This document shows, piece after piece, positions 8,995 to 22,380 of a DNA stretch of 64,000 nucleotides. Every line of letters starts with the position of its first letter. Positions within the stretch are counted from its first letter, which is position 1. Origin of the DNA: a virus. Location of the stretch: IMG/VR virus record IMGVR_UViG_3300020385_000005, positions 1-64,000 of that record; one strand, written 5' to 3'. The notes under the pieces were generated by a model. The model was not told the origin of the DNA, made no database searches, and saw only the letters and a program-made list of their open reading frames with translations. Made by a program: the position numbers and the translations under genes.

Positions 8995-9010
8995 AGGTGT
9001 CGTGTGTGGC

Positions 9011-9900: not shown

Positions 9901-9942
9901 ATTATAACAAGGAAAGACAAATAAATCGTCACGTCTCGTCAC
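9901..9942 (-). promoter_or_regulatory. extended -10 promoter candidate plus GTGACGAG motif (copy A)
   Basis: On the minus strand TGTTATAAT (9909-9901) is a perfect TGnTATAAT. GTGACGAGACGTGACG (9942-9927) lies upstream, immediately after the terminator at 9951-9982. Confidence 0.45.
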
Positions 9943-9950
9943 TTTTCAGC

Positions 9951-9982
9951 TAAAAAAAGAGTGTTTACCCCCTAGGGAAACT
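9951..9982 (-). terminator. intrinsic terminator closing the ORF-free unit
   Basis: Minus strand: GUUUCCC-UAGG-GGG(U)AAAC, then ACUC and a run of 7 U (plus-strand A run 9952-9958). Confidence 0.5.
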
Positions 9983-11468
9983 AGTCTCCTGTGCTTTAAA
10001 CGCACTTTTTGAGACTCGGAGGAGTTCTACCATATGGGAACTCTACCCCGGCCTACATCACTTCGATATAGGTCTTGATGGGATTGGTGTGTACTCTTTG
10101 CGCTTTCACGCCGAGGAGACCAGTACGCTGATCATTATCCCCCTCCGCCTTTAAGTGAACTTCACATACGTATATGTGTGGGGTGGCTTCACCATGACGG
10201 CAACCATTATCCCCTAAACTCACAATGATGGGCTCGAACCACCAAATGCAAAGGCAAGAGTTGTAGCTCTTGATACGCCTGGTCCTCACATATCTACAAA
10301 TATGCAACTTCCATTTGCTCCTCCCTCTGCACGCCGAAACCGGACTGTGCATATATCTCCAGTAATAAGGAGAATGAATAAGCTAAAGCAGAACTTTAAC
10401 ATATTAATTCACAGTATTACCGCGTCCCGCAAAGGGGATTTCAGGTGGCAAGTACTTACTACTTTGACTAGACGCATGCATCTAGGCTTTTCGCTTTCTT
10501 TGCCACCATATCTCATTCTTCACCAGAAGAGATTCACCGTTTATTTCCATTATCACTCCCCCGCTAAGGTTCGCTTACTGGATCATCGGTTTTGCATTTT
10601 CCCACTCCCGCTAAGGAGCTTCCATGCCAGGGCCATTTTCATTTAGGCTACCCTTGGGTTAGTTCTTCAACAAACGAATTGTTGAAGATATTCTTATAAT
10701 GAATGCATTCACTAATTTGGGGACTTTCCTTCCCCGAGAAATTCTTTATTGACTTACTTACCATGCCTGATAATAGCCACTGTATTTTGACCTGCTGACA
10801 TGAGGCGCATATGGGTTTGTTTTTTCTACAAACCGCGCACACCCCTTGTCTAAGGGTACTGGTTTTATCTCCAGCGACATAAGTTGCGACCTTATGCCAG
10901 TAACCCGCTTACCATTTCTCATTGGTATCCTTTGGAACATGAACTTATCATTCATTTCCGCAGGTAAGACCCGAAGGTCTAAGCGAGCACTATGCTTTTC
11001 TTTACGAAGGCGCATCTGGCTTCCGTTGAAAATTCTAATGTTCTTTTTTTTAAGTGTTTAGAAAATCACTGGGCCCAGCGTTAGCTGTCTTGATGAGAAA
11101 AGTGTTTCGTTCCCCTAAAGGACATCACTAATTAAAGCGATGCTAGCAGAGAGAAGCTCCACTAGACTCATCAGCCACGTCAACCCCAAAGGGCTTCAGC
11201 AGGACACTACTCAATTGATTTAACTGGCGACATTACGTCCGTTCATCAATTAAGATTTTGCCGACTTTTTTATGATAAAAGTCTAAATCATATGTAATAT
11301 TTTTAAGCCTGCTACATAACATTATGGCTTCCATTTTAAAGACTTGGATGTCTTGACCTTTTATTTCGCAGTGTGGTGGCGCGCCGCCATCATTCCACTC
11401 TATCTGCTTCTACACAGGTCTTCTCTTCATTTATATAGACCTCAAGAGAATAAGGCCTGAGATTATTA
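9983..11468 (-). ncRNA. candidate large structured ncRNA (unclassified, about 1.5 kb)
   Basis: There is no credible ORF. The block is dense in hairpins: a T-loop hairpin (10226-10244), c(UUCG)g (10967-10980), a 9-bp perfect hairpin (10665-10687) and a GC hairpin (11374-11389). A 14-mer is duplicated at 10554-10569 and 10603-10616. The block is bracketed by a motif and a terminator. Confidence 0.4.
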
Positions 11469-11486
11469 CGTCTCGTCTCGTCACAC
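11469..11486 (-). promoter_or_regulatory. GTGACGAG motif (copy B)
   Basis: Minus strand: GUGUGACGAGACGAGACG followed by TAATAAT and an AT-rich tract, at the head of the ORF-free unit. Confidence 0.35.
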
Positions 11487-11563
11487 CTTTCGGTTAACGA
11501 ATTTGAGAAACACCGATGTAGCTATATTGCTAATTACGGTGTTCTCGCGAACAGAACGAGTGA

Positions 11564-12169
11564 TTACTTCTTCTTCGGAGGCTTGACGGGATCTTCTACC
11601 TGGGGAGGTTGGATTGCTAGTCCAACACTCTCTGCCGCTACCCAGCTAATACCGCGGTCTTGCGACACGAGTGTACCAACGGGCAACATAGAAGATCCAT
11701 CATGAGGCGCCGCAGCACTTGTACTCATGTCCCACACATACCACGAAGGCTGAGCGGGAGGTTGAATTGGAGCCGCTACAGGAGCTTGTACTGGAGTACT
11801 AGCCGCAGCCGCAGCCATCTCTTGTCCTCGGATAAAACCGAGCTGTTGGTTGAGTTGTTGAGTCTCCAACGACAAGGCAGAGATTTTATACTCTGCAGCT
11901 GCATCAAGATCGTTTAGCTTCTTGATGTGCTTAGCACGCAAATTCAAGACCAGCGTCGTACCCTCCCCAACCAAATCACTCACCGCGACTGCATCCACCG
12001 GATCGACGACGGCACCTGCGCCGCCTATACCCTGCAAATTCTTCGAGACAAGTTTTTGACCCTTGAAGATCTTTGCCAAACGCTGTGTCTCCGACAACAG
12101 CGCTACTTCCTCCGCCAACTCCTGAAGCTTCTTCTCAATCTGTTCACTGTTGTTCAATTGGTATAGCAT
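11564..12169 (-). CDS. coiled-coil / Ala-Pro-rich protein (201 aa)
   Basis: AGGAGG RBS. N-terminal heptad-like region; C-terminal PVQAPVAAPIQPPAQP and a KPPKKK tail. Confidence 0.6.
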   Translation of the reverse strand: MLYQLNNSEQIEKKLQELAEEVALLSETQRLAKIFKGQKLVSKNLQGIGGAGAVVDPVDAVAVSDLVGEGTTLVLNLRAKHIKKLNDLDAAAEYKISALSLETQQLNQQLGFIRGQEMAAAAASTPVQAPVAAPIQPPAQPSWYVWDMSTSAAAPHDGSSMLPVGTLVSQDRGISWVAAESVGLAIQPPQVEDPVKPPKKK

Positions 12170-12280
12170 AATTTCCTCCTACAGAACGGGGCTAACCTTG
12201 TTAAAAAAAGACAACAATGGATCAAACATTTTCCTAACTAAATCTTGATAACAAACAAGAAATAGAAAATAAAAAATATT

Positions 12281-12298
12281 ATCACCTCGTCACACACA
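12281..12298 (-). promoter_or_regulatory. GTGACGAG motif (copy C)
   Basis: Minus strand: GUGUGUGACGAGGUGATAATAT followed by an AT-rich leader of the 12169 gene. Confidence 0.35.
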
Positions 12299-12392
12299 AG
12301 GGGAGCGAGCTTGCGAGCTGGGAGCTTGCGACCTCCTCGTCTCCGCGTGCGGAGTCAGCTTGTCTGGCGGAGTCTTTGCATTTTGTTTAACG

Positions 12393-12470
12393 GAGGATGC
12401 AAAACCCCCATTGAAAGAAATAAATTAAAAAAACCCCCCAAGTCGCCGAAGCAACCTGAGGGGTTTTTTT
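12393..12470 (-). terminator. terminator plus conserved box, cassette copy 1
   Basis: A 13-bp stem with a c(UUCG)g loop (12434-12463) is flanked by T/A runs. On the minus strand it is followed by TTTTTTTAATTTATTTCTTTCAATGGGGGTTTTGCATCCTCC. Confidence 0.65.
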
Positions 12471-12494
12471 AATTATACATAGCTACCTAACTTA

Positions 12495-12965
12495 TTATAG
12501 ATCGAGATCTATATTTCCGTTAGAAGGAGTAGGTGGTTGTACAGGCGGCGGTACCGATGCTGGAGGTGCCGTATCTACTCCATCTGCGTGAGCGTCAGGA
12601 GTCGGTGGCGCTACATGAGGTGTAACATCCGCACTTGTGGCACTAGTAGCAGCAGGAGGAGGAGGGGCAATAGGAGGGGGAGCAGGCTCATTCGAGCTAG
12701 CAGTATTGCTGTTAGCATTACCACTACCTTTATTCGAAGCAGTCTTGCGACCTTCCTTTCCATAGATTTCTGTACAGGCAATTTTTACTGTCTGCACTGC
12801 ACAATCCGCGTTGAAGTTAGTAGTATGGCTAATACTACGCTTCTCTGATCCTTCTTCCGTCCCAGCTAGGGCTATACATTTTTCAGCATAACTTTTCGCC
12901 AAATCGGGGCACAATTCCTTTAACGATAGGAACAGTTCCTTGTCTATAATGTCGTTGCTCATCAT
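12495..12965 (-). CDS. Pro-rich protein (156 aa)
   Basis: AAGGAG RBS lies 8 nt after the giant-gene stop. C-terminal half is APPPIAPPPPAA...VPPPVQPPTP, TonB-like in composition only. Confidence 0.6.
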   Translation of the reverse strand: MMSNDIIDKELFLSLKELCPDLAKSYAEKCIALAGTEEGSEKRSISHTTNFNADCAVQTVKIACTEIYGKEGRKTASNKGSGNANSNTASSNEPAPPPIAPPPPAATSATSADVTPHVAPPTPDAHADGVDTAPPASVPPPVQPPTPSNGNIDLDL

Positions 12966-12973
12966 ACTCTCCT

Positions 12974-15900
12974 TTAAGCCTTGAAGCCGTTGTAAGCCAT
13001 AATGAAGTGCTTCATAGTTTCAACGTCCCATTCAGGGTTCACTGGAGTATTGACTCCCAACAGAGTTGTATCCACTCCGTAGGTTTTGGTGATCTGCCCA
13101 AAAAGCTTTCTCACCGAACTTACAGATTGGTTACGCACTGAGTACATCATTCGAGCACGCATATCCTCACCATCACCGTTGTCGTCATCAGGCACCTCAT
13201 TAGCAATACCAACCAAACAGAAGAGCAAAGAAGGTGACAGAGTCATTAAGTACGACATTCCTCTCCAACTATCTGGATGATTCACCAACGCATCCAACCC
13301 CTGAATCGATGCATTCAGTGGACTCGGAAGTGTAACTCCATTGTCGCCAGTGATTTCCGTCTTAAAGACACTTCTTATACTGCCATCATAGCCTGGGCTG
13401 GCATTTTCATACGCACCATTAGCAACCCAGAGCTCAAAATCGCCGTGAAACAACGAATCTTTAGCTCTGGTTTGCTTGTTTTCCTCAATCTGAGCAGCTC
13501 CCAAAGCGCTATGCCATTGCATTGAAGAGCCTCGACCTTTAAGCTTTTCATCCTTGAATATGCCGACTTTCACATTGTCAAAAGCAGCTTTCATGAAATC
13601 AAACACCTCAGCAGGTGCTTGTCCACGAGATTGTTGCTTATCACCACAACCTGCCATTGTAAAGCCATAGTAGCGATACATTTGACTTGGCAATGCCTTG
13701 CTGTCCTTCAGATCCGAAGCAAACAATTTTGGCGCTTTTGATTTGGCACCGTAGTAAGTTGGCATCCATACCGTCTTAGTCAGCTGCATCTCATAAAGAA
13801 GTTGCGCTCTGTCTCCGTCTTCCATTTCTCTGAAGTTCGGCACATCAATACTGTCTTTGTAATCTAAATCAATTACAATTGAGTGAGGATATGTCGTCAT
13901 GAAGAACTCCTGGACTACGATCACAGAATCGCGAACGTCACCCGCATCAATAGGTGCATGCAAATGATAAGGTCGGAACCAATTAGAATCATCCAACCCT
14001 AATGTAGCGCGACAAGTAGCGCTATCTTCAAAGTCGTAGTGAAATGTTTTGCAATCAGACTGCGGGTTTTTGAATGTCCATAGTCCGTATGCCAAGAACA
14101 CGTGATCGGCAGTAGTCACATGACCAACACCGCAACGGAATTGGGCTTGAAGCCACTGTATAGCGTCAAATTCTCCGAAAGTGCAGACAGCCATTTGGTA
14201 CATTGGAGAATCAATAAAGATATAACCCCAATCAGTTGCTACGGTAGTATCCATGTAACACCGTGCGTCTTTGTCCTGGCGTGTCACTCCGAGACGAGGA
14301 ACCTGTGTCAAAAACTCCAAGTTATGCCCACTCATTAAAGCTTCATGTGCTACGGCAAGTTTGCAATCCTCTGGCACTGGAAACTCAATCACTGACCGAA
14401 CAGACTCTACGCCCTCTTCATCTACTTCAAAGATTCCTCCACGAACGATCTCATCGAACTGGTTGTTAACCATGTTCATGTCCATAATATCGTCTTTGAC
14501 AATGACTTTGTTGGCGTACTCCACCAAGCGTCCAACTTGCACAATTGGGCTGGCGTAAGCCTTAAAGCCTGCTAGTAAAGCGCTTCGGTTTTCACGATAA
14601 AATGCGAACACCTCTTCCGCTGTATTAAGACTCAGCAAGCCGTAAGTCGTTTTAGCCTCGTTTTGGATCCATGTCGATAGGTCTGCACCTAGGATCTTTG
14701 CGATATCGTCAACAAGCGACTCCCCATAGGTAGCCTTCTCAACAAGCTCTAACACTCGATCAGTGCTATCTTGACGGTTATCACTTCGCTCCATATCTTC
14801 GTAAGCTTCCTCAAGCGCTCCGAAGTACTCTGAGGCGATCCACTCAGTGATCTTACCAGTAAGGTCCTCGCTCTCGGTAGCTGCAACATGATACAGTTCT
14901 GCCTTGGAGACATTAGCAAGAGACTGGCTTGCAATCAAGAATTCTTGCACGCTCTCTAAAGAGCAGACCTTTTGCGCTGCTTTGTATTGCTGATGCAATG
15001 TGATCATCTCTGATTTATTGCGACCTTGCAACATGGGAGCATCCTCCCCTTCGAATTGGGTGTCTGCCCACTGCTTGAACGCAGGATAATTACCCATGAT
15101 ATCGATGAGGAACTCGCAGTCCTTAGTCTTCACCAATTCAGACAAGAAGTCTACACCTGCTTCCAAGTCGTTAACCTCTCTCTTGCCCATACTGTCAATA
15201 GCACGGATAGCCAAGATCATCATGCCTCCAAGAGCATCCATCTTATCTTCATTAGACAGAGCTCTTACACTTAGAGCGTTACGCCAGGTTCTAGCGAACT
15301 GACGCAAATACTTTAATTGATCTGACTCAATCGAGAGGAATGAATTTGAACCAAGAGCAGCGCGTAGATATTGTTTCATATCCGAGCCAGATGACACTTG
15401 ATCTATCTGAGTCTTTTCAGACTGAGATTTCGCTTGTGCTGCGTCAATAGCTTTATCAATATAAGCAAAGTACATTGCTCTCATGATTTGTTCTGCTTTC
15501 CAACCATCGAAGTACGGTATATACGCCTTGTTATCTACTGCTTGAGAGACAAATTCCGCGAATCTAGACTCACTTAACATGAATTCAGGTTTCATGAAAT
15601 CACTCATGCCCTTACATTCAATGGAGCAAACATCTTCATAAATGGCTTTGATTCTTGCTCGCATAGAAGAAAACACTCCTGGAGCTTGAGTGTTGTCTTT
15701 CATGTAACCAAGCTTTTGATAGCTTGATACCATCTTTGGCCAAACCCAATAGTACTCTACTTGCTGTGCCGTAACAGGGGACAAACCATATGAAGTTCTG
15801 CGGTTGTTAAACCATTTTGCCAACTCTTCCCAATTTGCCTTAGGCACCTTAGTGCTGCAGTCAAATAGGTCCTGCAGCTCTGACATATCTCCAAAGGTAA

Positions 15901-18900
15901 GGTATGGTAGCCCCATATTTAGAGCTGACACAGTCCAAGCCGCATGGTTGAACAGACCGCCATTGTCCCACATAGGGGTACGCAGTGATGCTGCTCTGCG
16001 GTCTTTCGACCATACCATCAACGGTACTTGCTCATCAGCATCTTCCCATGTCTCCAAATCCATATTGCGATACTGATCGAAGGTGACACCACGCATTCCG
16101 TAGATTGGGAAGTGATTTGGACAGTTAACCACTTTGCTACCAGGATGCTTAGCGGCAATTACTTTTGCCTCTGATTCAGTAACATTTGCAGCATGACAAG
16201 TTTTTCCGTCAACTACGACCCACTGCTTTCCGTCAATATATTTGCCTGGTAGGATCCAACCATCATTGCTGTACTCACCCTCATACCAGTATTCCACTGA
16301 ATGAGTGACACGCTCGTACTTTTGAAGGTCGATACCTGTTTGCTGAAGCGCATACAGGAAGTCCATGTATTTACGTGCCATTGGATTCATAGGGTGGTAA
16401 CCACGATCGGTGTGTCCCCATGTGTGGAAATTCAATGGAGCTGCTGCTGAAAGCGTTGGCCCACCTACATTATCTTGTCCAGGGCTGTTACCTGGTGCAT
16501 TCAAGAAGCGCTGAACCTTACGCAGAAGGTCTTTGTTACCAGCCTTAGCTGCCTCATAGGCTTCTTTTACCCCACCTTCCTTGGTGATGATTGGATCAAA
16601 AGCATTCACTACAAATGCTTTTGACTGCTCTTTCGCCGGAAGAACGCTAGGGTGCTTTTTCTCAATGTTTTTCGCCAAAGCAACCAACAACGGGTTATAG
16701 CTGAGCATATTTCTATCCCCATCGTTATCACCGCACACAGCTTCTTGCAATGTCGTATCGACGATGATGCTGCCTTCGGCTACACTTGGTAGCAGCGCTC
16801 GAAGGAACATAAGCACATTGTCTGCATCACTACCATGGCGAGCTTGTACCTTCTCAATGAATCGTACCGCTTCTGCATTCTTCGACAATCCAGTTCCACG
16901 GGTTGAGAATTTACCCATCACTGTACCAAGATCACTCTTGTCCTCTGCCATGTTGTACGCATCAAGAAGTTCAGCAATAAAACCAATGTCCAGCACCTTG
17001 GGACAACGAACTGTATCGTGCCCCTGATTAGGTGTCCTTCCGAAGAAGGCATGTGTTCGCCATTTATTACCTTGAAGGCGATCAATGGCAACCTCTTGAC
17101 CTAAATCAATCATTTGTATATAGCGGCTTTCCGCTTTCAACCCGAAACCACTGCTGATGCGCTCCGTTTGCTTTTTGCCCATCAATTTCATAAGGGCCAG
17201 AGCTTTTTGAGCTTGGTTAATGCTATTTGTTGCACCATCAACCCCATTGAGTCGCTCAGCAAAAGCTGACACTAGTTTATTCTCACTGTCGAGGATGCGT
17301 TTAAACATCTTACGCAGTTGTTGTGCAGCCAAACCACCTTCAGCTAGAATTTGCTTAACAAATTCTTCATCCAGAAGTTGTGTGACCTGCCAACCCAACG
17401 AGATCTTGGCTGTGTCCATAGGAGCGTCGAGCGTAATAGCCCAATTATAAATATCGATGCCTTGCAGCCCCTCGAACTTTAAGCCAGTCTTCGGGAACTT
17501 CGTTTTGTTGCCCTTGTTCTGGTCTGCGTCCAGGAATTGGCACACGATATACGTCGCACCATTAACAACGAACGCATACTGTAACATACACGCTTTCTTT
17601 TCGATGTCTACCAAGTAGCGAGCGAGACCTTTCTTGTGAGCGATGACTCGATCAACGAGATCCTGGAAGCTGGTGAAGTCTCCATCTTTTCTCACTTTGA
17701 CGAGTGCATCAGCAGTTGCGTTACCAACACCATCCATTGACATTAACATTGCTTTATCAGCGCTATTAATGTTCTGTAATGGCGTTGTCTTCTTCAAGCG
17801 TTTGAGAGTTGCCTTGCGACCTTTGTCCACTTGCTTATCATAGGAGTAGTTGTAAGCAGTCCAAGATCCATCCTCCAACTGCATACCAACAAATTTGGCA
17901 GCTGTCGACAAACCCTTAAACAGTCCTTTTGAAGCGCCTTCACGCCCTAAGCCAATAGTTCTGGCACGGTTCTGGATCGCTGTCATTAAGCCTGCGGTGA
18001 AGATGGTGCCGCCATCATTACCCTTCCAGCCAAACTGTGAGAGGTAACCTGAAAGCGTAGGAATACCATGTGGCAGTTCCGCTTGGTTAGGGGTTGTTAT
18101 GGCAGATCTAGCATAGCCACGCTGCTCAACTGCGTTCTTGAACATCTCATCCATTAATGCAATGAATGCATCACATAGGTCTGTGCCCAATTTCACAGCA
18201 AATCCTCGACATATGCTCACATATCCTGAGTCAAGGAGAATATCTGCGACATTCTTCATGAGTTCTTTGCTGTTAATGTCGTCGATTTCGTACAAGATCG
18301 CATTATCACCAGATATTTCCAAGCTAAGATCCGCTAAGATCTTCTCAACTGTGGTGTTGAATGATGCGAGGAAGCGACCTGCGCCACCCTTCATGGTCAG
18401 TCTAGTAGCTGTACCTTTGACCTCTTTGTCGTCACTGTGTGACGAATTCCCTGCAGAGGTGTTTGGCGTGCCTTTCTTGCTCTTACCGAAGCGGATGCAT
18501 GGTAAGATGTTGTATCCTGTGGATGCCATCAGGGCACGGATGTCATCTTGTAACAAGCTCTTCGCTCCGAGCGCTTTTTTCTCACGCTGGGTGTCAAGCA
18601 TATTGGTCGCGATAGGAGTAACCATCGACACATTCAACAAGTTACCAAGGTTAGATTTGGCAAATCGTGAGATCACCTTCTCGAGAAGACTTGCGCCATT
18701 CTCTGATGTGATTTCGAAATTGAAATCGTCGAAATACTCTACGGTTACGTCTGCGATTTCTGCAGATTTCGTAGCCGCTTTTCGTTCAGCTTTAGCTTTC
18801 GCCTTAGCCGCCTTTCGTTCAGCTTTAGCTTTGCGAGCCTCAGCCTTTACATGACTCGGACATAATGAATATTTCATAAGTCCTCCTTTCTTTGTGTTAA

Positions 18901-19501
18901 GAGTGCGTAACATAGCGCGACTCTTTTGTTTGAGTGTGTTGTTGTGTTCACGACGAGCCGCAGCCTTAGCCTTTCTAGCTTCAGCCTTGGCTTTATTCGC
19001 TGCCAAGCGTGTCTTACGGGCCTCTTCTCGAGCCTCTTTGCGAGCTTCTTTATGAGCTGCTTTACGGGCCTCGATAGCTTCTGCTTCTGCTTGCTCTTCA
19101 ACTTTGCGAGCTTCAGCCTCTGCTGCTTCAAAGTCAATCTCTTCGCCAGTAAATAGGCGGTATGTATACTCACCTTGTTTCACTGGAGTGGTCTTCGATA
19201 AGAACGTCTCCAGTTTTCGTTTGAGTATCCGCGATGTCTCTGGACGGCTTGCGAGAGTGGTCCATACCATCTCTCTGTAAGCTTGTGGTACGTGACCACA
19301 GGTAGCGACTGGGAGGCGACCTTGTCGTTTCTTGGCCATAGTATTTAGGGCCTTGAAGACCAAGTAATTGAGTGTAGTGTTGTTTTGCATGGCAAAACCT
19401 CTCTGTGTTTGACTGTGAGCGATTGTTGTGTTGAGCCCACAGTTGGTTGTAGAAATTAAGCCCATGAAAAGGGCAAAGAATGTGTTTAGTAAAATACGCA
19501 T
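12974..19501 (-). CDS. giant protein (2175 aa) with beta-prime-like double-psi beta-barrel motif; candidate single-chain RNA polymerase
   Basis: FFGRTPNQGHD (about 17015-17045) and AVCGDNDGDRNMLSYNPL (DNDGD = 16715-16729) resemble NRAPTLH and LVCxAxNADFDGDQMAVHVPL of RNAP beta-prime. There is a ComEA-like HhH (about 17645-17745), KAEARKAKA repeats, and a hydrophobic N-terminus. Confidence 0.5.
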   Translation of the reverse strand: MRILLNTFFALFMGLISTTNCGLNTTIAHSQTQRGFAMQNNTTLNYLVFKALNTMAKKRQGRLPVATCGHVPQAYREMVWTTLASRPETSRILKRKLETFLSKTTPVKQGEYTYRLFTGEEIDFEAAEAEARKVEEQAEAEAIEARKAAHKEARKEAREEARKTRLAANKAKAEARKAKAAARREHNNTLKQKSRAMLRTLNTKKGGLMKYSLCPSHVKAEARKAKAERKAAKAKAKAERKAATKSAEIADVTVEYFDDFNFEITSENGASLLEKVISRFAKSNLGNLLNVSMVTPIATNMLDTQREKKALGAKSLLQDDIRALMASTGYNILPCIRFGKSKKGTPNTSAGNSSHSDDKEVKGTATRLTMKGGAGRFLASFNTTVEKILADLSLEISGDNAILYEIDDINSKELMKNVADILLDSGYVSICRGFAVKLGTDLCDAFIALMDEMFKNAVEQRGYARSAITTPNQAELPHGIPTLSGYLSQFGWKGNDGGTIFTAGLMTAIQNRARTIGLGREGASKGLFKGLSTAAKFVGMQLEDGSWTAYNYSYDKQVDKGRKATLKRLKKTTPLQNINSADKAMLMSMDGVGNATADALVKVRKDGDFTSFQDLVDRVIAHKKGLARYLVDIEKKACMLQYAFVVNGATYIVCQFLDADQNKGNKTKFPKTGLKFEGLQGIDIYNWAITLDAPMDTAKISLGWQVTQLLDEEFVKQILAEGGLAAQQLRKMFKRILDSENKLVSAFAERLNGVDGATNSINQAQKALALMKLMGKKQTERISSGFGLKAESRYIQMIDLGQEVAIDRLQGNKWRTHAFFGRTPNQGHDTVRCPKVLDIGFIAELLDAYNMAEDKSDLGTVMGKFSTRGTGLSKNAEAVRFIEKVQARHGSDADNVLMFLRALLPSVAEGSIIVDTTLQEAVCGDNDGDRNMLSYNPLLVALAKNIEKKHPSVLPAKEQSKAFVVNAFDPIITKEGGVKEAYEAAKAGNKDLLRKVQRFLNAPGNSPGQDNVGGPTLSAAAPLNFHTWGHTDRGYHPMNPMARKYMDFLYALQQTGIDLQKYERVTHSVEYWYEGEYSNDGWILPGKYIDGKQWVVVDGKTCHAANVTESEAKVIAAKHPGSKVVNCPNHFPIYGMRGVTFDQYRNMDLETWEDADEQVPLMVWSKDRRAASLRTPMWDNGGLFNHAAWTVSALNMGLPYLTFGDMSELQDLFDCSTKVPKANWEELAKWFNNRRTSYGLSPVTAQQVEYYWVWPKMVSSYQKLGYMKDNTQAPGVFSSMRARIKAIYEDVCSIECKGMSDFMKPEFMLSESRFAEFVSQAVDNKAYIPYFDGWKAEQIMRAMYFAYIDKAIDAAQAKSQSEKTQIDQVSSGSDMKQYLRAALGSNSFLSIESDQLKYLRQFARTWRNALSVRALSNEDKMDALGGMMILAIRAIDSMGKREVNDLEAGVDFLSELVKTKDCEFLIDIMGNYPAFKQWADTQFEGEDAPMLQGRNKSEMITLHQQYKAAQKVCSLESVQEFLIASQSLANVSKAELYHVAATESEDLTGKITEWIASEYFGALEEAYEDMERSDNRQDSTDRVLELVEKATYGESLVDDIAKILGADLSTWIQNEAKTTYGLLSLNTAEEVFAFYRENRSALLAGFKAYASPIVQVGRLVEYANKVIVKDDIMDMNMVNNQFDEIVRGGIFEVDEEGVESVRSVIEFPVPEDCKLAVAHEALMSGHNLEFLTQVPRLGVTRQDKDARCYMDTTVATDWGYIFIDSPMYQMAVCTFGEFDAIQWLQAQFRCGVGHVTTADHVFLAYGLWTFKNPQSDCKTFHYDFEDSATCRATLGLDDSNWFRPYHLHAPIDAGDVRDSVIVVQEFFMTTYPHSIVIDLDYKDSIDVPNFREMEDGDRAQLLYEMQLTKTVWMPTYYGAKSKAPKLFASDLKDSKALPSQMYRYYGFTMAGCGDKQQSRGQAPAEVFDFMKAAFDNVKVGIFKDEKLKGRGSSMQWHSALGAAQIEENKQTRAKDSLFHGDFELWVANGAYENASPGYDGSIRSVFKTEITGDNGVTLPSPLNASIQGLDALVNHPDSWRGMSYLMTLSPSLLFCLVGIANEVPDDDNGDGEDMRARMMYSVRNQSVSSVRKLFGQITKTYGVDTTLLGVNTPVNPEWDVETMKHFIMAYNGFKA
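18775..18832 (-). repeat. 33-nt tandem duplication inside the giant gene
   Basis: CCGC(T/C)TTTCGTTCAGCTTTAGCTTT occurs at 18775-18799 and 18808-18832 and encodes KAKAERKAA units. Confidence 0.7.
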
Positions 19502-19507
19502 ATCAGT

Positions 19508-19521
19508 GTCCTTTCAAAGAC
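19508..19521 (-). promoter_or_regulatory. SD-in-loop hairpin (loose variant) before the giant gene
   Basis: mRNA sense GUC-UUUGAAAG-GAC; ends 6 nt before AUG 19501. Confidence 0.35.
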
Positions 19522-19586
19522 TTGATGAATAGCTAAAGCCGAAATGGCACCTTCTGGTAGAAGGCTGGAGAGTCGCTATAATCTCT

Positions 19587-19657
19587 CCATTAAAGGGAAC
19601 AAATTAAAAAACATGCCCCGGAGTGCGGTGGTGCACTCGGGGCAACGTCTTCTAATC
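19587..19657 (-). terminator. terminator plus conserved box, cassette copy 2
   Basis: Hairpin GCCCCGAGUGC-ACCA-GCACUCCGGGGC with a bulge (19615-19643), followed by AUGUUUUUUAAUUUGUUCCCUUUAAUGG. About 70 nt are homologous to copy 4. Confidence 0.65.
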
Positions 19658-19675
19658 TTCAACACGGAAATAAAC

Positions 19676-21247
19676 TCAACCGTGTTGGGAATTCATTTTT
19701 TCTATTTTGCTACCAACTATCAAATTGCGGTAATACCGCATGGTAATTCGGCCATATTCATAGGCCGTCTCCCCAGTCCCAGCGTACCTGTAAATAAGAT
19801 ATGTAGCCTTGCCATTTCTTTTCACTGGTCGAAGCCATTGTGATGAGTTCTTTAGGTGGATCTTCTTTACGCGCCCTTCAGGGCCGTATCGCCAGCTTTT
19901 CTCAAGCCAACGCTTTTGGGCTTGGAACGCATACTCAAATGACCCATTCAGTCGTGCGCACTCGCCCTGAAGGCCCCGAGTGTCCACCTGGACGATTCCA
20001 CATGCTTGCATGTGGCTCATATAGACTTCTCTCTCCCAAATGTGGTGGGAGAAGATAATCTGACCACCTACTTGTTTAAAAGAGGAACCCTGGCTGAACC
20101 CACAGCCAGTCTCCTTCAAGCAGATGCTAAGCGCGAGCTTTTGCGTCTCTAACGGAGCGTCCCCCCAGACCTTCTGGAAGGCCTTCACAATTCGGGTCAA
20201 ACGACCTTCATTGTTGACCTTGAAGTGTTGTCGTATGGAAGCACTTACGTCAAGTTGTGCTTTTACTTCCCTTTTACAAGGGTAAAGTTTCATTCCATAC
20301 TGGGCTGACACTCGATTAGTGTCAAGTTGTGCATTAGTGCATGCAGCATAAAGATTTGTTGTAGTCGCCAACAGAAGAATTACAGCAACGAGAGCAATAA
20401 TCATAATGCGGCAGGCCGCCTGCATTCTGCCAAAGGGGCAGATGTAATCTTTCTCCAAATAACGATTATGGTAGGAGCCTTCGTTTTTTACGTTAGCAAC
20501 GAGAAAGTCGCATAATCCACGTCCCCACAAAAGTGTTAAGAGGATAAGTAGGATGCCGACTGGGTGATCGAACCCAGCGCAAACAAGCTTTTCTCCCTGT
20601 ATCTCACAAGTGGTCTTAAGAAAATCTTTGGTCGCTTTAACATCTAGCTGCTGAATCTCTTTTGTTCGACAATTGTAAAGGACCATACCATACTGCGCCG
20701 ACACTCGGTTTACTTGTAATTCTGCATCGGTGCAAGCAGCATGAGATGTTTCAACCATGCCGACGATTGCAGCCAAAGCCACAAGTCCGATTAGGATAAC
20801 GAGCCTTGCTTCCCTATCGGAGAGACTCCTGAACAAGAAGAGGAAGCAAATGAAGAATAGCACCTTGAGCGGTTGATCCGCCGTGATGCCAGCACATAGG
20901 ATCTGGCCCCTGGTGAAGCGGCACTTAACGCCAGGCCCAACCTTGCGGATGTGCTCTTGGAGCAACAGTCGTTGGTTGGTACAAGCCCCTTTAGAGCGCG
21001 TGAGAACTCGTCGACGAATCATATAGCCGCTCGCCCTACACTCCTTTGGGGTGGCGGTAGAAGCAGATTTGGTAGGGGTAGCTTTAGCAGGAGGGGCATC
21101 AAGAGCCTCCTCTAAGAGGCCAGGACATACGATGTGGTTGTAGTTACCACCGGTACAAGTATCGGCGGCAATTGTTTTGAGAGCACCACAGCCTGTAACT
21201 GCGGTAAGGAAAAGAAAGCCAATGAAGGCAAGAATAAGGTTACGCAT
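19676..21247 (-). CDS. multi-module envelope protein with C-terminal lytic-transglycosylase-like domain (523 aa)
   Basis: Lipoprotein-type signal (LTAVTG/C). Repeated Cys module (AACT[DN]A[EQ]L..NRVSAQYGM.LY.C; ...CAG+TM) separated by paired hydrophobic helices. C-terminal SICLKETGCGF ... ACGIVQVD is SLT-like. Confidence 0.45.
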   Translation of the reverse strand: MRNLILAFIGFLFLTAVTGCGALKTIAADTCTGGNYNHIVCPGLLEEALDAPPAKATPTKSASTATPKECRASGYMIRRRVLTRSKGACTNQRLLLQEHIRKVGPGVKCRFTRGQILCAGITADQPLKVLFFICFLFLFRSLSDREARLVILIGLVALAAIVGMVETSHAACTDAELQVNRVSAQYGMVLYNCRTKEIQQLDVKATKDFLKTTCEIQGEKLVCAGFDHPVGILLILLTLLWGRGLCDFLVANVKNEGSYHNRYLEKDYICPFGRMQAACRIMIIALVAVILLLATTTNLYAACTNAQLDTNRVSAQYGMKLYPCKREVKAQLDVSASIRQHFKVNNEGRLTRIVKAFQKVWGDAPLETQKLALSICLKETGCGFSQGSSFKQVGGQIIFSHHIWEREVYMSHMQACGIVQVDTRGLQGECARLNGSFEYAFQAQKRWLEKSWRYGPEGRVKKIHLKNSSQWLRPVKRNGKATYLIYRYAGTGETAYEYGRITMRYYRNLIVGSKIEKMNSQHG

Positions 21248-21251
21248 GATT

Positions 21252-21266
21252 ATGTCCCTTCGACAT
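21252..21266 (-). promoter_or_regulatory. SD-in-loop hairpin (copy 7)
   Basis: mRNA sense AUGUC-GAAGG-GACAU; ends 4 nt before AUG 21247. Confidence 0.5.
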
Positions 21267-21311
21267 GTGATTTAAGCGTATATAGCCATGTTGTTTTTCA
21301 CACTATGTGAT

Positions 21312-21368
21312 GGAGGAGGCAAATCCCCCATTAAAAGGAGCCAAATTAAAAAAAGCCCCGAAGGGCTC
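21312..21368 (-). terminator. terminator plus conserved box, cassette copy 3
   Basis: AGCCC-UUCG-GGGCU hairpin (21354-21367), followed by UUUUUUUAAUUUGGCUCCUUUUAAUGGGGGAUUUGCCUCCUCC. Confidence 0.55.
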
Positions 21369-21384
21369 TCTTTAATCCATCCCT

Positions 21385-21987
21385 CTACAGGGCGCTTGCC
21401 ATGAGGCGAAGCCTGTCCTGGGTAGGCAGGTAGTCACCACCACTAGCCGTATCCTCCCAGTAGCCTTGCTCTGGGTGTAGCATGAAGTACTCAGCTAGAT
21501 CCCACGCATCATGCTGTGCATAAGCAGCAGCGAACACATCTGCATCAACCTCACCGAGGCCATATGTATGACCTATCTCATGAGCCAGTACTATCCGGCC
21601 CATGTAGCCACCAGGACCTATATTAAAGTGAGGCCCTAGATTAAAAGCTTTCTGAGCCCTCTCTCCAAAGAAGTAGCTATTCTTCCTGGTGGTAAGGCGT
21701 GCAGGGTAGCCCATTAGACTATACGGATTCTCCTGAGAGAAGAACTCTTTGGCACCCCATACATCTACGATGGGCCTATCAGGAGTGATAACATCAAACA
21801 TACTGATGTTCCTCTCAAAGCCCTCGATACCTTCATGGCCATGGACCTCCGCTAGGAAGGTATCGATACCCTCTTCCACTGTGTTGAAAGAAGGTAGTTC
21901 ATGGTTATTGGTGGTTGATGGCTCACAGGCCAGTGAGGTTATAGGGTTGATGAGGATGAGGCTAATGGCAAAGAATAGGATACGCAT
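21385..21987 (-). CDS. secreted zinc metallopeptidase-like protein (200 aa)
   Basis: Signal peptide MRILFFAISLILINPITSLA/CEP. HEIGHTYGLGE (HExxHxxGxxE, nt about 21566-21585). Confidence 0.55.
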   Translation of the reverse strand: MRILFFAISLILINPITSLACEPSTTNNHELPSFNTVEEGIDTFLAEVHGHEGIEGFERNISMFDVITPDRPIVDVWGAKEFFSQENPYSLMGYPARLTTRKNSYFFGERAQKAFNLGPHFNIGPGGYMGRIVLAHEIGHTYGLGEVDADVFAAAYAQHDAWDLAEYFMLHPEQGYWEDTASGGDYLPTQDRLRLMASAL

Positions 21988-22014
21988 AGTAATGTCCTTT
22001 TTAGTTAAGTAAAT

Positions 22015-22088
22015 CCACTAAAAGGAGCAAATTAAAAAACACGCCCTACAGTGCGGTGGTGCACCATAGGGCCTAAGCGTCTCTTAAT
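22015..22088 (-). terminator. terminator plus conserved box, cassette copy 4
   Basis: Hairpin 22043-22072 shares the inner AGTGCGGTGGTGCAC with copy 2. It is followed on the minus strand by GUGUUUUUUAAUUUGCUCCUUUUAGUGG. Confidence 0.6.
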
Positions 22089-22100
22089 TGTATAGTAAGA

Positions 22101-22352
22101 TTAATACAGCTTGTAGAAAGTTGTATTGCTCTTACCAGTCTTGTGGACCTCTTTGGCCCAGTGCTCCCCTGAGGGAGTTACGACTAGGTATTCAAATCGC
22201 ACAACTGGGTCATACCCTGTTGTACCACTCAAACGTTTAATACGGAAGGTGGAGATCTCTACCCTGCACCCAGGGGTAATACCATACCCAAGGTCGACGT
22301 TCTGGTCGGTTAGAATACGGGTTTCGTTAGAGTCATATACTTCGTTTTTCAT
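22101..22352 (-). CDS. hypothetical protein (83 aa)
   Basis: ATG start; beta-rich looking; no motif recognised. Confidence 0.5.
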   Translation of the reverse strand: MKNEVYDSNETRILTDQNVDLGYGITPGCRVEISTFRIKRLSGTTGYDPVVRFEYLVVTPSGEHWAKEVHKTGKSNTTFYKLY

Positions 22353-22380
22353 ATTTATATCCTATATGAAAAGAGTTCAA

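What the first reader, a model, noticed from the sequence alone, without database searches (positions are those of the whole stretch)
12974..19501. Giant 2175-aa single-polypeptide RNA-polymerase-like protein in a contractile-tail-type phage
Residues about 820-935 align by eye with the catalytic double-psi beta-barrel of multisubunit RNAP beta-prime. FFGRTPNQGHD resembles NRAPTLH (nt about 17015-17045), and AVCGDNDGDRNMLSYNPL resembles LVCxAxNADFDGDQMAVHVPL (DNDGD = nt 16715-16729, residues 925-929). A ComEA-type helix-hairpin-helix (DGVGNATADALVKVRKDGDFTSFQDLVDRV, nt about 17645-17745) lies upstream. Single-chain two-barrel polymerases are known from crAss-like phage virion RNAP, SPbeta YonO and QDE-1-type RdRPs. 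This gene differs in context. It sits in a genome whose virion module looks sheath/tube (myovirus-like), on the opposite strand from that module, and inside a G+C-richer island. It also carries a hydrophobic signal/anchor-like N-terminus and Lys/Ala/Glu/Arg repeats. I cannot locate the second (beta-like) barrel with confidence; KGNKTKFPKTGLKFEG upstream is only a guess.
Basis: partly seen in the sequence, partly recalled or inferred. Interest (0 to 1): 0.8.

Follow-up and report, generated by a model that had tools for sequence, protein, structure and literature searches.

The report
Giant single-chain two-barrel phage RNA polymerase
This 2,175-residue protein of an uncultured marine contractile-tailed phage is very probably a highly diverged, oversized single-chain RNA polymerase of the same superfamily as cellular RNA polymerases, from a family that standard annotation libraries do not recognise and whose gene sits in a fast-diverging genome island.

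Summary
Pfam, PHROGs and PDB sequence searches find only a helix-hairpin-helix. An exhaustive HMMER search found about 13 giant relatives (1,200-2,330 aa, 16-59% identical). R822-x-P-x-Q826, D925-x-D-G-D929, Q510-x-R512, K529-G530, K663 and I1057-D-x-Q-K1061 are invariant in all 15 sequences.

An AlphaFold model of residues 420-1380 (pLDDT 75) has single-chain two-barrel RNA polymerases as its top five PDB matches: crAss-like phi14:2 vRNAP, two P23-45-type polymerases and plant RDR2. Beta-prime/Rpb1 chains follow. Individual E-values are weak (best 0.013).

The portal places the phage near Bacillus phage 0305phi8-36. Its gp99 (Pfam RdRP, E 1e-18) occupies the same genome position, and its family profile aligns co-linearly with this one (score 40.5 against a shuffled 16.9±2.2).

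The RNA-polymerase reading is therefore supported, but a contractile-tailed precedent exists. The second-barrel motif is better placed at 510-530 than at 663-678.

New observations: about 1,000 extra residues, a conserved hydrophobic N-terminus, and a GC-rich island carrying 27%-identical gene versions in otherwise 70-90% identical phages. Whether the protein is packaged in the virion is unresolved.

The parts
12974..19501 (-). Giant ORF, 2,175 aa: single-chain two-barrel RNA-polymerase-like protein
   Evidence: ORF listing. An identical protein occurs on 13-17 Tara Oceans and other marine contigs up to 161 kb. The family was defined.
19439..19495 (-). N-terminal hydrophobic signal/anchor-like segment (residues 3-21, ILLNTFFALFMGLISTTNC)
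   Evidence: Kyte-Doolittle average 2.06 over 15 residues. It is translated: the comparison with L007 shows in-frame indels and synonymous changes. Eight of the 15 family members have an N-terminal segment scoring at least 1.6 over 19 residues, and six have a further hydrophobic segment at about 130-290.
18752..19144 (-). Ala/Lys/Glu/Arg-rich low-complexity region (residues 120-250), possibly a long charged helix or spacer
   Evidence: 71% A/K/E/R. Similar A/K/E-rich stretches are visible in P0006, P0007, P0012 and P0017. The helix/spacer role is inference only.
17837..18127 (-). First beta-rich conserved region (residues about 459-555) with invariant R461, Y463, P471, D496-G497, Q510-x-R512 and K529-G530. 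Best candidate for the basic-residue motif of the second (beta-like, DPBB-B) barrel
   Evidence: Invariant columns. Model pLDDT about 80-95 with strands at 481-485, 499-502, 509-515, 527-535, 537-541 and 547-551. AFQxR...KGL aligns with sAFQIRxGFxKGLL of the gp99/PF05183 family: score 23.2 against a shuffled 11.1±8.7, reached by 1 of 215 shuffles.
17642..17773 (-). ComEA-type helix-hairpin-helix insertion (residues 577-620)
   Evidence: Pfam HHH_3 E 6.5e-6 and HHH_6 E 7.5e-4. Present in only 4 of 15 family members, so it is a lineage-specific insertion.
17375..17575 (-). Second beta-strand cluster (residues about 643-709) with invariant K663 and W704-Q705.
   Evidence: Invariant columns. Strands at 643-646, 649-652, 655-658, 674-680, 684-689 and 699-701 in the model. 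In members that lack the HHH it is contiguous with the first beta region.
17138..17368 (-). Helical connector between the two barrel regions (residues about 712-788)
   Evidence: Five helices in the model (core 293-364). This is analogous to the connector described for gp66 and QDE-1 (bioRxiv 10.1101/2020.03.07.982082). The analogy is inferred.
16697..17137 (-). Beta-prime-like catalytic barrel (DPBB-A, residues about 789-935): R822-x-P824-x-Q826, a helical insertion at 839-908, then D925-x-D927-G928-D929
   Evidence: These residues are invariant in 15 sequences. Strands flank the motifs in the model. GDNDGD aligns with ADTDGD of the gp99 family. The only nucleotide match to locus L013 inside the gene falls here (16699-16738).
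16277..16498 (-). Post-catalytic conserved elements (residues about 1002-1075): G1008-Q1009..V-G1013 and the helix with Q1054..I1057-D1058-x-Q1060-K1061 (bridge-helix-like position)
   Evidence: Invariant columns. They align in register with IGEITN and QGWSIDFAKTG of gp99. Helix 1040-1058 in the model. The bridge-helix assignment is inferred from position.
12977..15361 (-). C-terminal about 795 residues (1381-2175): family-conserved, mostly helical, no recognisable fold
   Evidence: Conserved blocks in A4 and A6. Model pLDDT 60.9. Foldseek against the PDB gives only unrelated helical proteins, probability at most 0.09.
19543..19646 (-). Leader cassette upstream of the giant gene: terminator hairpin, TTTTTTAATTTGTTCCCTTTAATGG, then a GGAGAG/CTCTCC hairpin
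   Evidence: Sequence. It is 90-92% identical in L014 and L013 although the ORFs downstream are only 27% identical. It is also conserved in L007.
11505..22379 (-). GC-rich, fast-diverging island containing the giant gene and four neighbours (200-aa, 523-aa, 156-aa and 201-aa ORFs). Three more copies of the terminator-plus-motif cassette lie at 22015-22072, 21328-21379 and 12408-12470
   Evidence: GC profile. The composite motif occurs exactly four times in 64 kb, all here. The flanks are 69-92% identical at the nucleotide level to L014 and L013, while the island interior is not alignable.

Best explanation
The gene encodes a giant single-chain 'two-barrel' nucleic-acid polymerase, most likely a DNA-dependent RNA polymerase. 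It belongs to the clade that includes eukaryotic RdRPs/QDE-1, SPbeta YonO, the crAss-like virion RNAP and the P23-45 RNAPs. It is the enlarged and extremely diverged counterpart of gp99 of Bacillus phage 0305phi8-36.

Proposed mechanism. The triad D925/D927/D929, in a loop of the beta-prime-like barrel (residues about 789-935), binds the catalytic Mg2+. R822-x-P-x-Q826 forms the preceding conserved strand and loop. A second, beta-like barrel region (about 481-551 plus 643-701) supplies conserved basic residues (R512, K529, possibly K663) to the same site. In this sub-lineage that region is split by a DNA-binding helix-hairpin-helix insertion. A helical connector joins the two barrels. The conserved helix carrying I1057-D-x-Q-K1061 lies where a bridge helix would be.

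Shown here: the ORF, the family, the invariant residues, the fold-level ranking, the profile similarity to gp99 and the shared gene position. Inferred: RNA synthesis on a DNA template, and which phage genes it transcribes.

The additional roughly 420 N-terminal residues (hydrophobic anchor plus A/K/E-rich stretch) and roughly 800 C-terminal residues have no known counterpart. Delivery mode is unresolved. By analogy with gp99 and YonO it could be made early in the cell and transcribe later genes. By analogy with the giant virion RNAPs of crAss-like and N4-like phages it could be packaged and ejected. I rate these about equally likely.
For: Family and invariant residues: exhaustive HMMER search, sequences, alignments.

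Fold: the core model has pLDDT 75.1 and pTM 0.72. The Foldseek PDB top five are all single-chain two-barrel RNAPs: 6VR4 (E 0.013, probability 0.82), 8F72 chains A and B, 7ROZ and 8F5M. Beta-prime/Rpb1 chains of bacterial, archaeal, poxvirus, ASFV and plant polymerases follow. The BFVD list includes crAss-like putative RNAPs, P23-45 A7XX94, baculovirus/nudivirus LEF-9 and giant-virus RNAP subunits. The control C-terminal model gives no RNAP hits.

Homology to a genuine family: gp99 matches Pfam RdRP PF05183 at E 1.2e-18. hhalign of A5 against the gp99-family alignment A7 scores 40.5, against a column-shuffled null of 16.9±2.2 with maximum 22.1 (n=29). It is co-linear over up to 470 columns and aligns three motifs in register. 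The independent N-terminal sub-alignment scores 23.2, reached by 1 of 215 shuffles.

Gene position: the portal is 35% identical to that of 0305phi8-36. gp99 lies on the strand opposite the virion module, just past the terminal-repeat genes, and is followed by small genes. The same layout is seen here and in loci L008, L014, L016 and the P0012 contig.

DNA binding: Pfam HHH_3.
Against: No sequence library recognises the protein as a polymerase. Pfam, PHROGs and PDB sequence searches with the single sequence or the family profile return nothing except the HHH. hhalign against crAss-like gp66 is null.

Every individual Foldseek E-value is above 0.001 and global TM-scores are low (0.17-0.19), so the fold evidence rests on how specific the ranking is.

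The model was built from only 15 sequences.

A hydrophobic, signal-peptide-like N-terminus with a conserved Cys at about position 21 is unexpected for a cytoplasmic polymerase.

No recurring promoter candidate was found outside the island.
Confidence: 0.75

Rival explanations
1. Same enzyme, specifically a virion-packaged RNAP. It is ejected with the DNA through the contractile tail. The N-terminal hydrophobic segment inserts into the host membrane, and the enzyme transcribes the first genes to enter, as in crAss-like gp66, N4 gp50 and P23-45 gp96.
For: At 1,700-2,330 aa across the family, the size matches the giant virion RNAPs and is twice that of gp99. There are about 1,200 residues of non-polymerase sequence. 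N-terminal and internal hydrophobic segments are common in the family. 6VR4, a virion RNAP, is the best PDB match. The gene lies in a fast-diverging island next to genes for exported-looking proteins, and a homologue of the 523-aa neighbour stays upstream of the giant gene in L008, L013 and L014. That pattern fits host-interface functions.
Against: The gene lies outside the virion gene block and on the opposite strand, with its own terminator/promoter cassette. Its positional counterpart gp99 is not among the dozens of proteins flagged as detected by mass spectrometry in 0305phi8-36 virions, although single-peptide, low-copy proteins were recorded there. An N-terminal Sec-like signal would tend to divert the protein from cytoplasmic capsid assembly.
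Confidence: 0.35
2. Same enzyme, specifically a non-virion RNAP. It is made early from the leader cassette by the host RNAP and transcribes middle or late phage genes, as YonO does and as presumed for gp99. It may be tethered to the membrane by its N-terminus.
For: It shares gene position and profile homology with gp99, which is not flagged as virion-associated. It lies at the head of a block of small non-structural-looking genes. The leader contains a -10-like TTTAAT preceded by an A/T-rich tract.
Against: No known non-virion single-chain RNAP approaches 2,000 aa. No shared motif was found upstream of the structural operons that could act as its promoter. Versions only 27% identical sit in phages whose remaining DNA, including any promoters, is 70-90% identical. 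That is awkward for a promoter-specific enzyme.
Confidence: 0.4
3. A two-barrel polymerase with a role other than mRNA synthesis. Examples: RNA-dependent RNA synthesis as in QDE-1/RDR, primer synthesis for replication, or DNA synthesis as in archaeal PolD.
For: The closest recognisable sequence family is Pfam 'RdRP', and RDR2 is among the top structural matches. QDE-1 has both DNA- and RNA-templated activity (PMC9508822 abstract).
Against: The phage members of this clade that have been characterised (YonO, gp66, P23-45 gp64 and gp96) are DNA-dependent transcriptases. The HHH insertion is of a DNA-binding type. No PolD chain appears in the Foldseek list.
Confidence: 0.1
4. Not a polymerase. It would be a large structural, ejection or envelope-associated protein in which D-x-D-G-D and the other motifs serve another purpose, such as metal binding, and the Foldseek ranking is misleading.
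For: The N-terminus is signal-peptide-like with a conserved Cys. The two upstream genes also begin MR + hydrophobic segment + Cys. D.DGD alone arises in 4% of shuffles. All Foldseek E-values exceed 0.001.
Against: The aspartate triad is invariant together with R-x-P, R...KG and ID..K, all co-linear with a genuine RdRP family. The top of the PDB list contains only RNAPs, unlike the control model. The gene shares its position with gp99.
Confidence: 0.07

Closest known systems
Bacillus phage 0305phi8-36 gp99 (ABS83659.1, 1,218 aa), a YonO-like/RdRP-like single-chain two-barrel RNAP (Pfam PF05183)
   Same: Same relative genome position in a phage with a related portal. It lies on the strand opposite the virion module, a few genes from the divergence point, and is followed by small genes. 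The motifs are co-linear: AFQxR...KGL, R-[ST]-P, G-[DA]-x-D-G-D-[RK], [VI]-G-x-I-T-N and Q..[AS]-I-D-x-x-K. The profile-profile score is about 10 SD above the shuffled null.
   Different: This protein is almost twice as long. It is not detected by PF05183, and BLAST/tblastn find no similarity. It has an N-terminal hydrophobic segment, an A/K/E-rich region, an HHH insertion and an unrelated C-terminal region of about 800 aa. The host environment is marine and probably Gram-negative, not Bacillus.
Virion RNAP gp66 of crAss-like phage phi14:2 (PDB 6VR4, 2,180 aa)
   Same: It is the best structural match in the PDB. The size is nearly identical. Both are single chains with two barrels joined by a helical connector, and most of each protein has no known fold. 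Both come from marine phages.
   Different: There is no detectable sequence or profile similarity. gp66 has DFDID at residue 1361, whereas this protein has DNDGD, with the canonical Gly, at 925. gp66 is encoded within the virion gene block of a podovirus and is shown to be packaged. This gene lies outside the virion block of a contractile-tailed phage, and packaging is unknown.
P23-45-type non-virion RNAPs (gp64 homologues; PDB 8F72, 8F5M) and TMP-fused virion RNAP gp96
   Same: They rank second to fifth among the PDB structural matches, and P23-45 A7XX94 appears in the BFVD list. They are single-chain two-barrel phage RNAPs in the clade of phage/plasmid single-subunit enzymes and RNAi polymerases (PMC10770324).
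   Different: Those enzymes are about 600 aa, or fused to a tape-measure protein, and come from a thermophilic siphovirus. No sequence similarity was detected.
Eukaryotic RNAi polymerases QDE-1 and RDR2 (PDB 2J7N, 7ROZ; Pfam PF05183)
   Same: RDR2 is the third-ranked PDB match. Motif style is shared: R-x-P, D-x-D-G-D and A-[IV]-D-x-x-K. The last comparison rests partly on my own knowledge of RDR motifs.
   Different: They are cellular enzymes with an RNA-templated function. This protein fails the PF05183 model.
Beta-prime/Rpb1 subunit of multisubunit RNAPs
   Same: It shares the D-x-D-G-D triad and a preceding R-x-P strand. Beta-prime chains fill ranks 6-50 of the Foldseek list.
   Different: E-values are only 0.5-7. 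There are no Pfam Rpb1 domains. Both barrels lie in one chain, in the order beta-like then beta-prime-like. About 100 residues, including a helical insertion, separate R-x-P from the triad.

Membership tests
Two-barrel (double-psi beta-barrel) polymerase superfamily | DxDxD (usually DxDGD) Mg2+-binding triad in the beta-prime-like barrel | tested here: met
   D925, D927, G928 and D929 are invariant in 15 sequences of 16-59% identity. The triad aligns with ADTDGD of the gp99 family.
Two-barrel (double-psi beta-barrel) polymerase superfamily | Second barrel contributing conserved basic residues to the active site | tested here: inconclusive
   Invariant R512, K529-G530 and K663 lie in beta-rich regions. 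AFQxR...KGL aligns with the gp99-family R293...K298-G299.
Two-barrel (double-psi beta-barrel) polymerase superfamily | Overall fold similar to solved two-barrel polymerases | tested here: met
   The top five of 350,542 PDB chains are all single-chain two-barrel RNAPs, and ranks 6-50 are mostly beta-prime/Rpb1. The control model gives none. Caveat: the best E-value is 0.013 and TM-scores are about 0.18.
Two-barrel (double-psi beta-barrel) polymerase superfamily | Template-dependent NTP polymerisation | not testable with these tools
   This needs biochemistry.
RdRP/QDE-1/YonO-like clade (Pfam PF05183) | Match to the PF05183 model above its gathering score | tested here: not met
   There is no PF05183 hit at E<=1 for the protein or for any of the 15 family cores. 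gp99 scores 67.6 bits with E 1.2e-18.
RdRP/QDE-1/YonO-like clade (Pfam PF05183) | Profile-level homology to genuine members | tested here: met
   A5 against A7 scores 40.5 in hhalign, against a shuffled 16.9±2.2 with maximum 22.1 (0 of 29 reach it). The alignment is co-linear over up to 470 columns.
RdRP/QDE-1/YonO-like clade (Pfam PF05183) | Single chain, beta-like barrel N-terminal to the beta-prime-like barrel, helical connector between them | tested here: met
   The order of secondary-structure elements and motifs in the model fits this. The order of invariant motifs does too.
crAss-like virion RNAP (gp66 type) | Sequence or profile similarity to gp66 orthologues | tested here: not met
   phmmer and hmmsearch against PDB sequences do not find 6VR4. 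hhalign against gp66 gives probability 0.2.
crAss-like virion RNAP (gp66 type) | Encoded in the virion gene block and present in virions | tested here: not met
   For gene position, the gene lies on the opposite strand from the virion block, whereas gp66 lies within it. Presence in virions is not testable here.
Multisubunit RNAP beta-prime | Pfam RNA_pol_Rpb1 domains and the NADFDGD context | tested here: not met
   No Rpb1-family Pfam hit. Only the D-x-D-G-D core and an R-x-P are shared.

The most novel reading that the evidence does not exclude
The giant polymerase is a membrane-inserting enzyme that is delivered from the virion or acts at the DNA-entry site, in a contractile-tailed phage that is not phiKZ-like. 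It would be encoded in an exchangeable cassette: deeply divergent versions (27% identity) are swapped between near-identical phages under a conserved leader. That would make the phage's own transcription enzyme a host-range or counter-defence locus. The hydrophobic N-terminus and A/K/E-rich stretch would act as a tether.
Probability: 0.3. Interest if true: 0.75.

Novelty: new variant of a known kind. Interest (0 to 1): 0.6.

Why it matters
Single-chain two-barrel RNA polymerases bear on how cellular RNA polymerases and the eukaryotic RNA-interference polymerases arose. Only a few have been characterised: YonO, crAss-like gp66, P23-45 gp64 and gp96, and QDE-1/RDR.

This family adds a giant form from abundant uncultured marine phages that Pfam, PHROGs and PDB sequence searches all miss. 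Such phages would currently be scored as lacking their own polymerase.

The protein links the roughly 1,200-aa RdRP-like enzyme of 0305phi8-36 to crAss-sized enzymes through shared gene position. It therefore offers a test of whether giant size goes with virion delivery.

The pairing of a conserved leader with a 27%-identical coding region in otherwise similar genomes is an unusual pattern for a core information-processing enzyme. It may report on an arms race or on modular exchange.

Tried and rejected
1. Single-sequence Pfam, PHROGs and PDB sequence searches found only the HHH.

2. tblastn of the giant protein against 50,697 GenBank phage records found no match.

3. The word-indexed protein search found only a 60% relative. 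Repeating it with the family profile returned a single fragment, so that search was largely wasted.

4. The first exhaustive search failed because the profile was two columns too long. It was repeated after trimming.

5. hhalign of the family against crAss-like gp66 was null.

6. I first mis-assigned ABS83659.1 to ORF102 by accession arithmetic. ORF102 looks like a nucleotidyltransferase and does not align. Reading the record showed that the correct gene is ORF099.

7. hhalign's built-in P-value was identical (0.0022) for two different scores, so I replaced it with column-shuffle nulls. One run timed out.

8. The model of residues 1290-2175 is of low quality (pLDDT 61) and matches no known fold.

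9. Acinetobacter phage ME3, from the same portal clade, has no counterpart: gp187, gp152 and gp177 lack DxDxD and score at background.

10. The supplementary files of the P23-45 paper do not contain the family's motifs, and the file holding the 23 RNAP-family alignments is not held, so I could not check whether this family was already catalogued. Searching papers for 'DNDGD' found nothing relevant.

11. My by-eye readings of the 523-aa neighbour as a lytic transglycosylase and of the 200-aa neighbour as an HExxH protease were not confirmed by Pfam or PHROGs for either protein, nor by a PDB sequence search of the 523-aa protein.

12. A k-mer search of intergenic regions found no second recurring motif that could be a promoter for this enzyme.

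14. Rfam found nothing in the leader or the ORF-poor stretches.

Full report
OBSERVATION. The window contains a 6,528-nt ORF on the minus strand (12974..19501, ATG start, 2,175 aa). DNDGD is residues 925-929 (nt 16715-16729). FFGRTPNQGHD is residues 819-829. The helix-hairpin-helix stretch is residues 590-619. KGNKTKFPKTGLKFEG is residues 663-678. The N-terminus is hydrophobic (Kyte-Doolittle 2.06 over residues 3-17). Residues 120-250 are 71% Ala/Lys/Glu/Arg.

The gene lies in a GC-richer stretch: 0.44-0.48 over 8-22 kb, against 0.33-0.39 for most of the rest. The plus strand from about 23.6 kb encodes a virion module with large terminase, portal, major head protein and a 975-aa tail sheath. 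D.DGD alone is not rare, occurring in 4.1% of shuffles of this protein, so the case has to rest on other evidence.

WHAT STANDARD ANNOTATION SEES. Very little. Pfam gives only HHH_3 and HHH_6 at residues 577-620. PHROGs gives nothing. phmmer against all PDB sequences gives nothing. tblastn against 50,697 GenBank phage records gives no match. The identical protein occurs on 13-17 marine contigs, from Tara Oceans and other sources, up to 161 kb long. The word-indexed search of 5.8 billion protein clusters found only one other relative, P0002, at 60% identity.

THE FAMILY. An exhaustive HMMER search of 1.84 billion representative proteins used the conserved core of the two sequences. It found about 13 large relatives of 1,201-2,329 aa, plus fragments. 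All other hits matched only the HHH. The relatives share profile positions about 365-810, corresponding to residues about 644-1089 of this protein.

In a 15-sequence alignment, identity to this protein is 59% for P0002 and 16-41% for the rest. The invariant positions are G433, R461, Y463, P471, D496, G497, Q510, R512, K529, G530, K663, W704, Q705, R822, P824, Q826, P905, D925, D927, G928, D929, G1008, Q1009, G1013, Q1054, I1057, D1058, Q1060, K1061, S1068, E1157, P1274, S1361 and Q1365. The HHH is present in only 4 of 15 members and is a lineage-specific insertion. The family profile still finds nothing in PDB sequences or Pfam.

FOLD. AlphaFold2 on residues 420-1380, using the 15-sequence alignment, gave a usable model: mean pLDDT 75.1, pTM 0.72, and 634 of 961 residues at 70 or above. 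The order of elements is as follows.
- A beta-rich region at 481-551 carries Q510/R512 and K529/G530.
- The helical HHH insertion follows.
- A second beta cluster at 643-701 carries K663.
- A five-helix connector spans about 712-788.
- Strands at 789-838 end in R822-x-P-x-Q.
- A helical insertion spans 839-908.
- Strand 912-915, the D925-D929 loop and strand 930-934 follow.
- A long helix at 1040-1058 carries I1057-D-x-Q-K.

Foldseek against 350,542 PDB chains gave no hit below E 0.001, but the ranking is highly specific.
- Rank 1 is 6VR4, the crAss-like phi14:2 virion RNAP (E 0.013, probability 0.82).
- Ranks 2, 4 and 5 are the P23-45-type RNAPs 8F72 (chains A and B) and 8F5M.
- Rank 3 is Arabidopsis RDR2 (7ROZ).
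- Ranks 6-50 are almost entirely beta-prime/Rpb1 chains of bacterial, archaeal, plastid, poxvirus, ASFV and plant Pol IV/V enzymes.

BFVD gave an uncharacterised Caudovirales protein at E 7.8e-10. After it came crAss-like putative RNAPs, P23-45 A7XX94, LEF-9 and giant-virus RNAP subunits.

As an unplanned negative control, a model of residues 1290-2175 (pLDDT 60.9) retrieved only unrelated helical proteins, with probability at most 0.09. I could not inspect the superpositions or the coordinates. The convergence of the invariant residues on one site is therefore inferred, not shown.

LINK TO A KNOWN PHAGE ENZYME. The portal is 33-36% identical to those of the 0305phi8-36-like jumbo myoviruses: Bacillus 0305phi8-36, WH1, Edson and KLEB27-3, Acinetobacter ME3, and Moorella MTATph1. 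Iyer et al. 2021 (PMC7824862) state that 0305phi8-36 encodes a YonO-like single-subunit two-barrel RNAP, ABS83659.1. In the GenBank record this is ORF099/gp99 (1,218 aa), annotated 'hypothetical DNA-directed RNA polymerase; similar to RNA-directed RNA polymerase family, Pfam05183'. It matches PF05183 at E 1.2e-18.

On the terminally redundant map, gp99 lies on the strand opposite the virion module. It sits just beyond the terminal-repeat genes ORF101-107 and ORF100, and is followed by a long run of small genes. The giant gene has the same layout here and in loci carrying distant family members (L008, the P0012 contig, L014 and L016). In each, a roughly 250-aa gene and a giant gene with an SNase domain head the virion-strand block, and the RNAP-like giant lies a few genes into the divergent block.

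I built a 12-sequence alignment of gp99 relatives. hhalign between it and the family core aligns GDNDGD with ADTDGD, VGxITN with IGEITN, and QQTAIDxQK with QGWSIDFAK, all in register. With a lower alignment threshold the match is co-linear over 470 columns. hhalign's own P-values looked unreliable, so I calibrated by column shuffling. The full comparison scores 40.5 against 16.9±2.2 (maximum 22.1, n=29). A separate N-terminal sub-alignment pairs AFQxR...KGL (Q510/R512...K529/G530) with the gp99-family sAFQIRxGFxKGLL. It scores 23.2 against 11.1±8.7, and 1 of 215 shuffles reaches that value.

This places the basic-residue motif of the beta-like barrel at about 510-530. Acinetobacter phage ME3 has no counterpart.

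MECHANISM. The best-supported reading is a single-chain two-barrel polymerase of the RdRP/QDE-1/YonO/crAss clade. D925/D927/D929 would bind Mg2+, and R512/K529 (possibly K663) would come from the other barrel. A helical connector and a bridge-helix-like element are present, and this sub-lineage has an added DNA-binding HHH.

By analogy with the characterised phage members, it should synthesise RNA on the phage's DNA. YonO, gp66, and P23-45 gp64 and gp96 are all DNA-dependent enzymes. That step is inferred.

Delivery is unresolved. Four points favour a cell-made, non-virion enzyme.
- It shares gene position with gp99.
- gp99 is not among the many 0305phi8-36 proteins flagged as detected in virions by mass spectrometry.
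- The gene lies outside the virion block.
- It has its own leader.

Four points favour a virion-delivered enzyme.
- The family's size (1,700-2,330 aa) matches the giant virion RNAPs.
- About 1,200 residues are of unknown fold.
- Hydrophobic N-terminal and internal segments are common in the family.
- The gene lies in a fast-diverging island with exported-looking neighbours.

A signal-peptide-like N-terminus is hard to reconcile with either model. It begins MR + hydrophobic segment + Cys21, is conserved in P0002, and is clearly translated. It remains unexplained.

THE ISLAND.

1. A composite element occurs exactly four times in 64 kb. It consists of a terminator hairpin followed by TTTTTTAATTTR(N0-1)YTYCYTTYARTGG, usually followed by a G-rich/C-rich hairpin. 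All four copies are on the minus strand in intergenic DNA of the island, upstream of the 200-aa, 523-aa, giant and 201-aa genes.

2. IMG/VR loci L014 and L013 are 69-92% identical to the window at the nucleotide level on both flanks (about 4-11.5 kb and 22.4-28 kb). The roughly 97-nt leader of the giant gene is 90-92% identical. The giant ORFs themselves show no nucleotide similarity, apart from 40 nt at the DNDGD site in L013. The proteins are 27% identical and co-linear over 2,124 residues.

3. The divergent version's island is also GC-rich: 0.47-0.52 against 0.37-0.42 in the flanks. The composition therefore belongs to the gene family and is not a sign of recent import.

This indicates either cassette exchange or very rapid divergence of the polymerase gene and its neighbours beneath conserved regulatory DNA.

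COMPARISON AND NOVELTY. The superfamily and the clade are known, and a contractile-tailed phage precedent (gp99) exists.

Four things appear new.
- This family is invisible to Pfam PF05183, PHROGs and BLAST.
- It is about twice the size of gp99 and matches crAss-like gp66 in length.
- It has a conserved hydrophobic N-terminus, an A/K/E-rich region and a large C-terminal region of unknown fold.
- It shows strong divergence between versions of the gene in otherwise similar phages.

I could not check it against the 23 catalogued two-barrel families, because that supplementary file is not held. Prior description therefore cannot be excluded.

I rate it a new variant of a known kind, with interest 0.6. 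Confidence is about 0.75 that it is a two-barrel RNA polymerase, with about even odds between the virion-delivered and cell-made modes.

Noticed in passing
window 22015-22072, 21328-21379, 19587-19646 and 12408-12470 (minus strand): A terminator hairpin immediately followed by TTTTTTAATTTR..YTYCYTTYARTGG, usually followed by a G-rich/C-rich hairpin. It occurs exactly four times in the window, all upstream of genes in the GC-rich island. Two of the terminators share the loop GTGCACCACCGCAC. It may be an island-specific promoter or leader. Which polymerase reads it is unknown.
   Followed up: partly
window about 11505-22379, compared with L014 and L013: The flanks are 69-92% identical at the nucleotide level and the giant gene's leader is 90-92% identical. 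The island's coding regions are not alignable, and the giant proteins are 27% identical. The divergent version's island is also GC-rich. This looks like a fast-diverging or exchangeable cassette.
   Followed up: partly
window 12229-12376, 11448-11513, 11100-11256 and 10560-10632 (minus strand); ORF-poor gaps at 8372-9010, 9563-10052, 10353-10757, 11016-11563 and 12170-12494: Non-coding stretches downstream of the giant gene are more conserved with L007 (70-84%) than the giant gene body (65%). They are GC-rich and full of hairpins, so they may be structured RNAs or leaders. Rfam has no match.
   Followed up: partly
L008 15384-16813: An ORF-free, GC-rich, hairpin-rich stretch of about 1.4 kb lies downstream of the distant family member P0021. 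L008 4815-5118 also holds three tandem copies of a TATTTGGGG..AAAAATCTTATAAGG-like element.
   Followed up: no
window 19676-21247 (minus strand, 523 aa): The neighbour has a lipoprotein-type N-terminus (MRNLILAFIGFLFLTAVTGC), several hydrophobic segments and an internal duplication (AACT[DN]A[EQ]L..NRVSAQYGM.LY.C twice). Its C-terminal part is conserved upstream of the giant gene in L008. I guessed by eye that it resembles a lytic transglycosylase, but Pfam, PHROGs and PDB sequence searches do not support that.
   Followed up: partly
window 21385-21987 (minus strand, 200 aa): A small protein with a signal-peptide-like N-terminus (MRILFFAISLILINPITSLAC) and an HEIGH (HExxH) motif. It has no library match and is not conserved in related loci.
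   Followed up: partly
window 24351-28373 (plus strand, 1,340 aa) and 23594-24358 (plus strand, 254 aa): A giant protein with a staphylococcal-nuclease domain (Pfam SNase, E 7e-22, residues 1034-1142) and a 254-aa partner head the virion-strand block. Both are conserved (36-91% identity) in every related locus that carries the RNAP-like giant.
   Followed up: partly
window 51245-52159, 52229-53812 and 53824-54738 (plus strand): Three consecutive paralogues just after the tail sheath all match phrog_9206 and phrog_34314. The PHROG label is 'major head protein', but the position suggests tail-tube paralogues, as annotated in 0305phi8-36.
   Followed up: no
window 2314-2385 (minus strand): tRNA-Lys (UUU), the only tRNA and the only Rfam hit in the window.
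   Followed up: yes
window 7628-8371 (minus strand, 247 aa): A membrane protein with a CNNM transmembrane domain (Pfam PF01595, E 2e-8) among the small genes. It is 76% identical in L014.
   Followed up: no
L021 (CBFHOE010000020.1, 11.3 kb): The only hit among 185,579 species genomes is a 66%-identical copy on a short contig binned into a Limisphaerales (Verrucomicrobiota) MAG. It is either a weak host hint or a mis-binned phage contig.
   Followed up: no
L012 1836-3488 (0305phi8-36 ORF102): The 550-aa terminal-repeat protein gp102 of 0305phi8-36 has a GGxxxD...DxD nucleotidyltransferase-like N-terminus by eye. It is annotated only as hypothetical.
   Followed up: no
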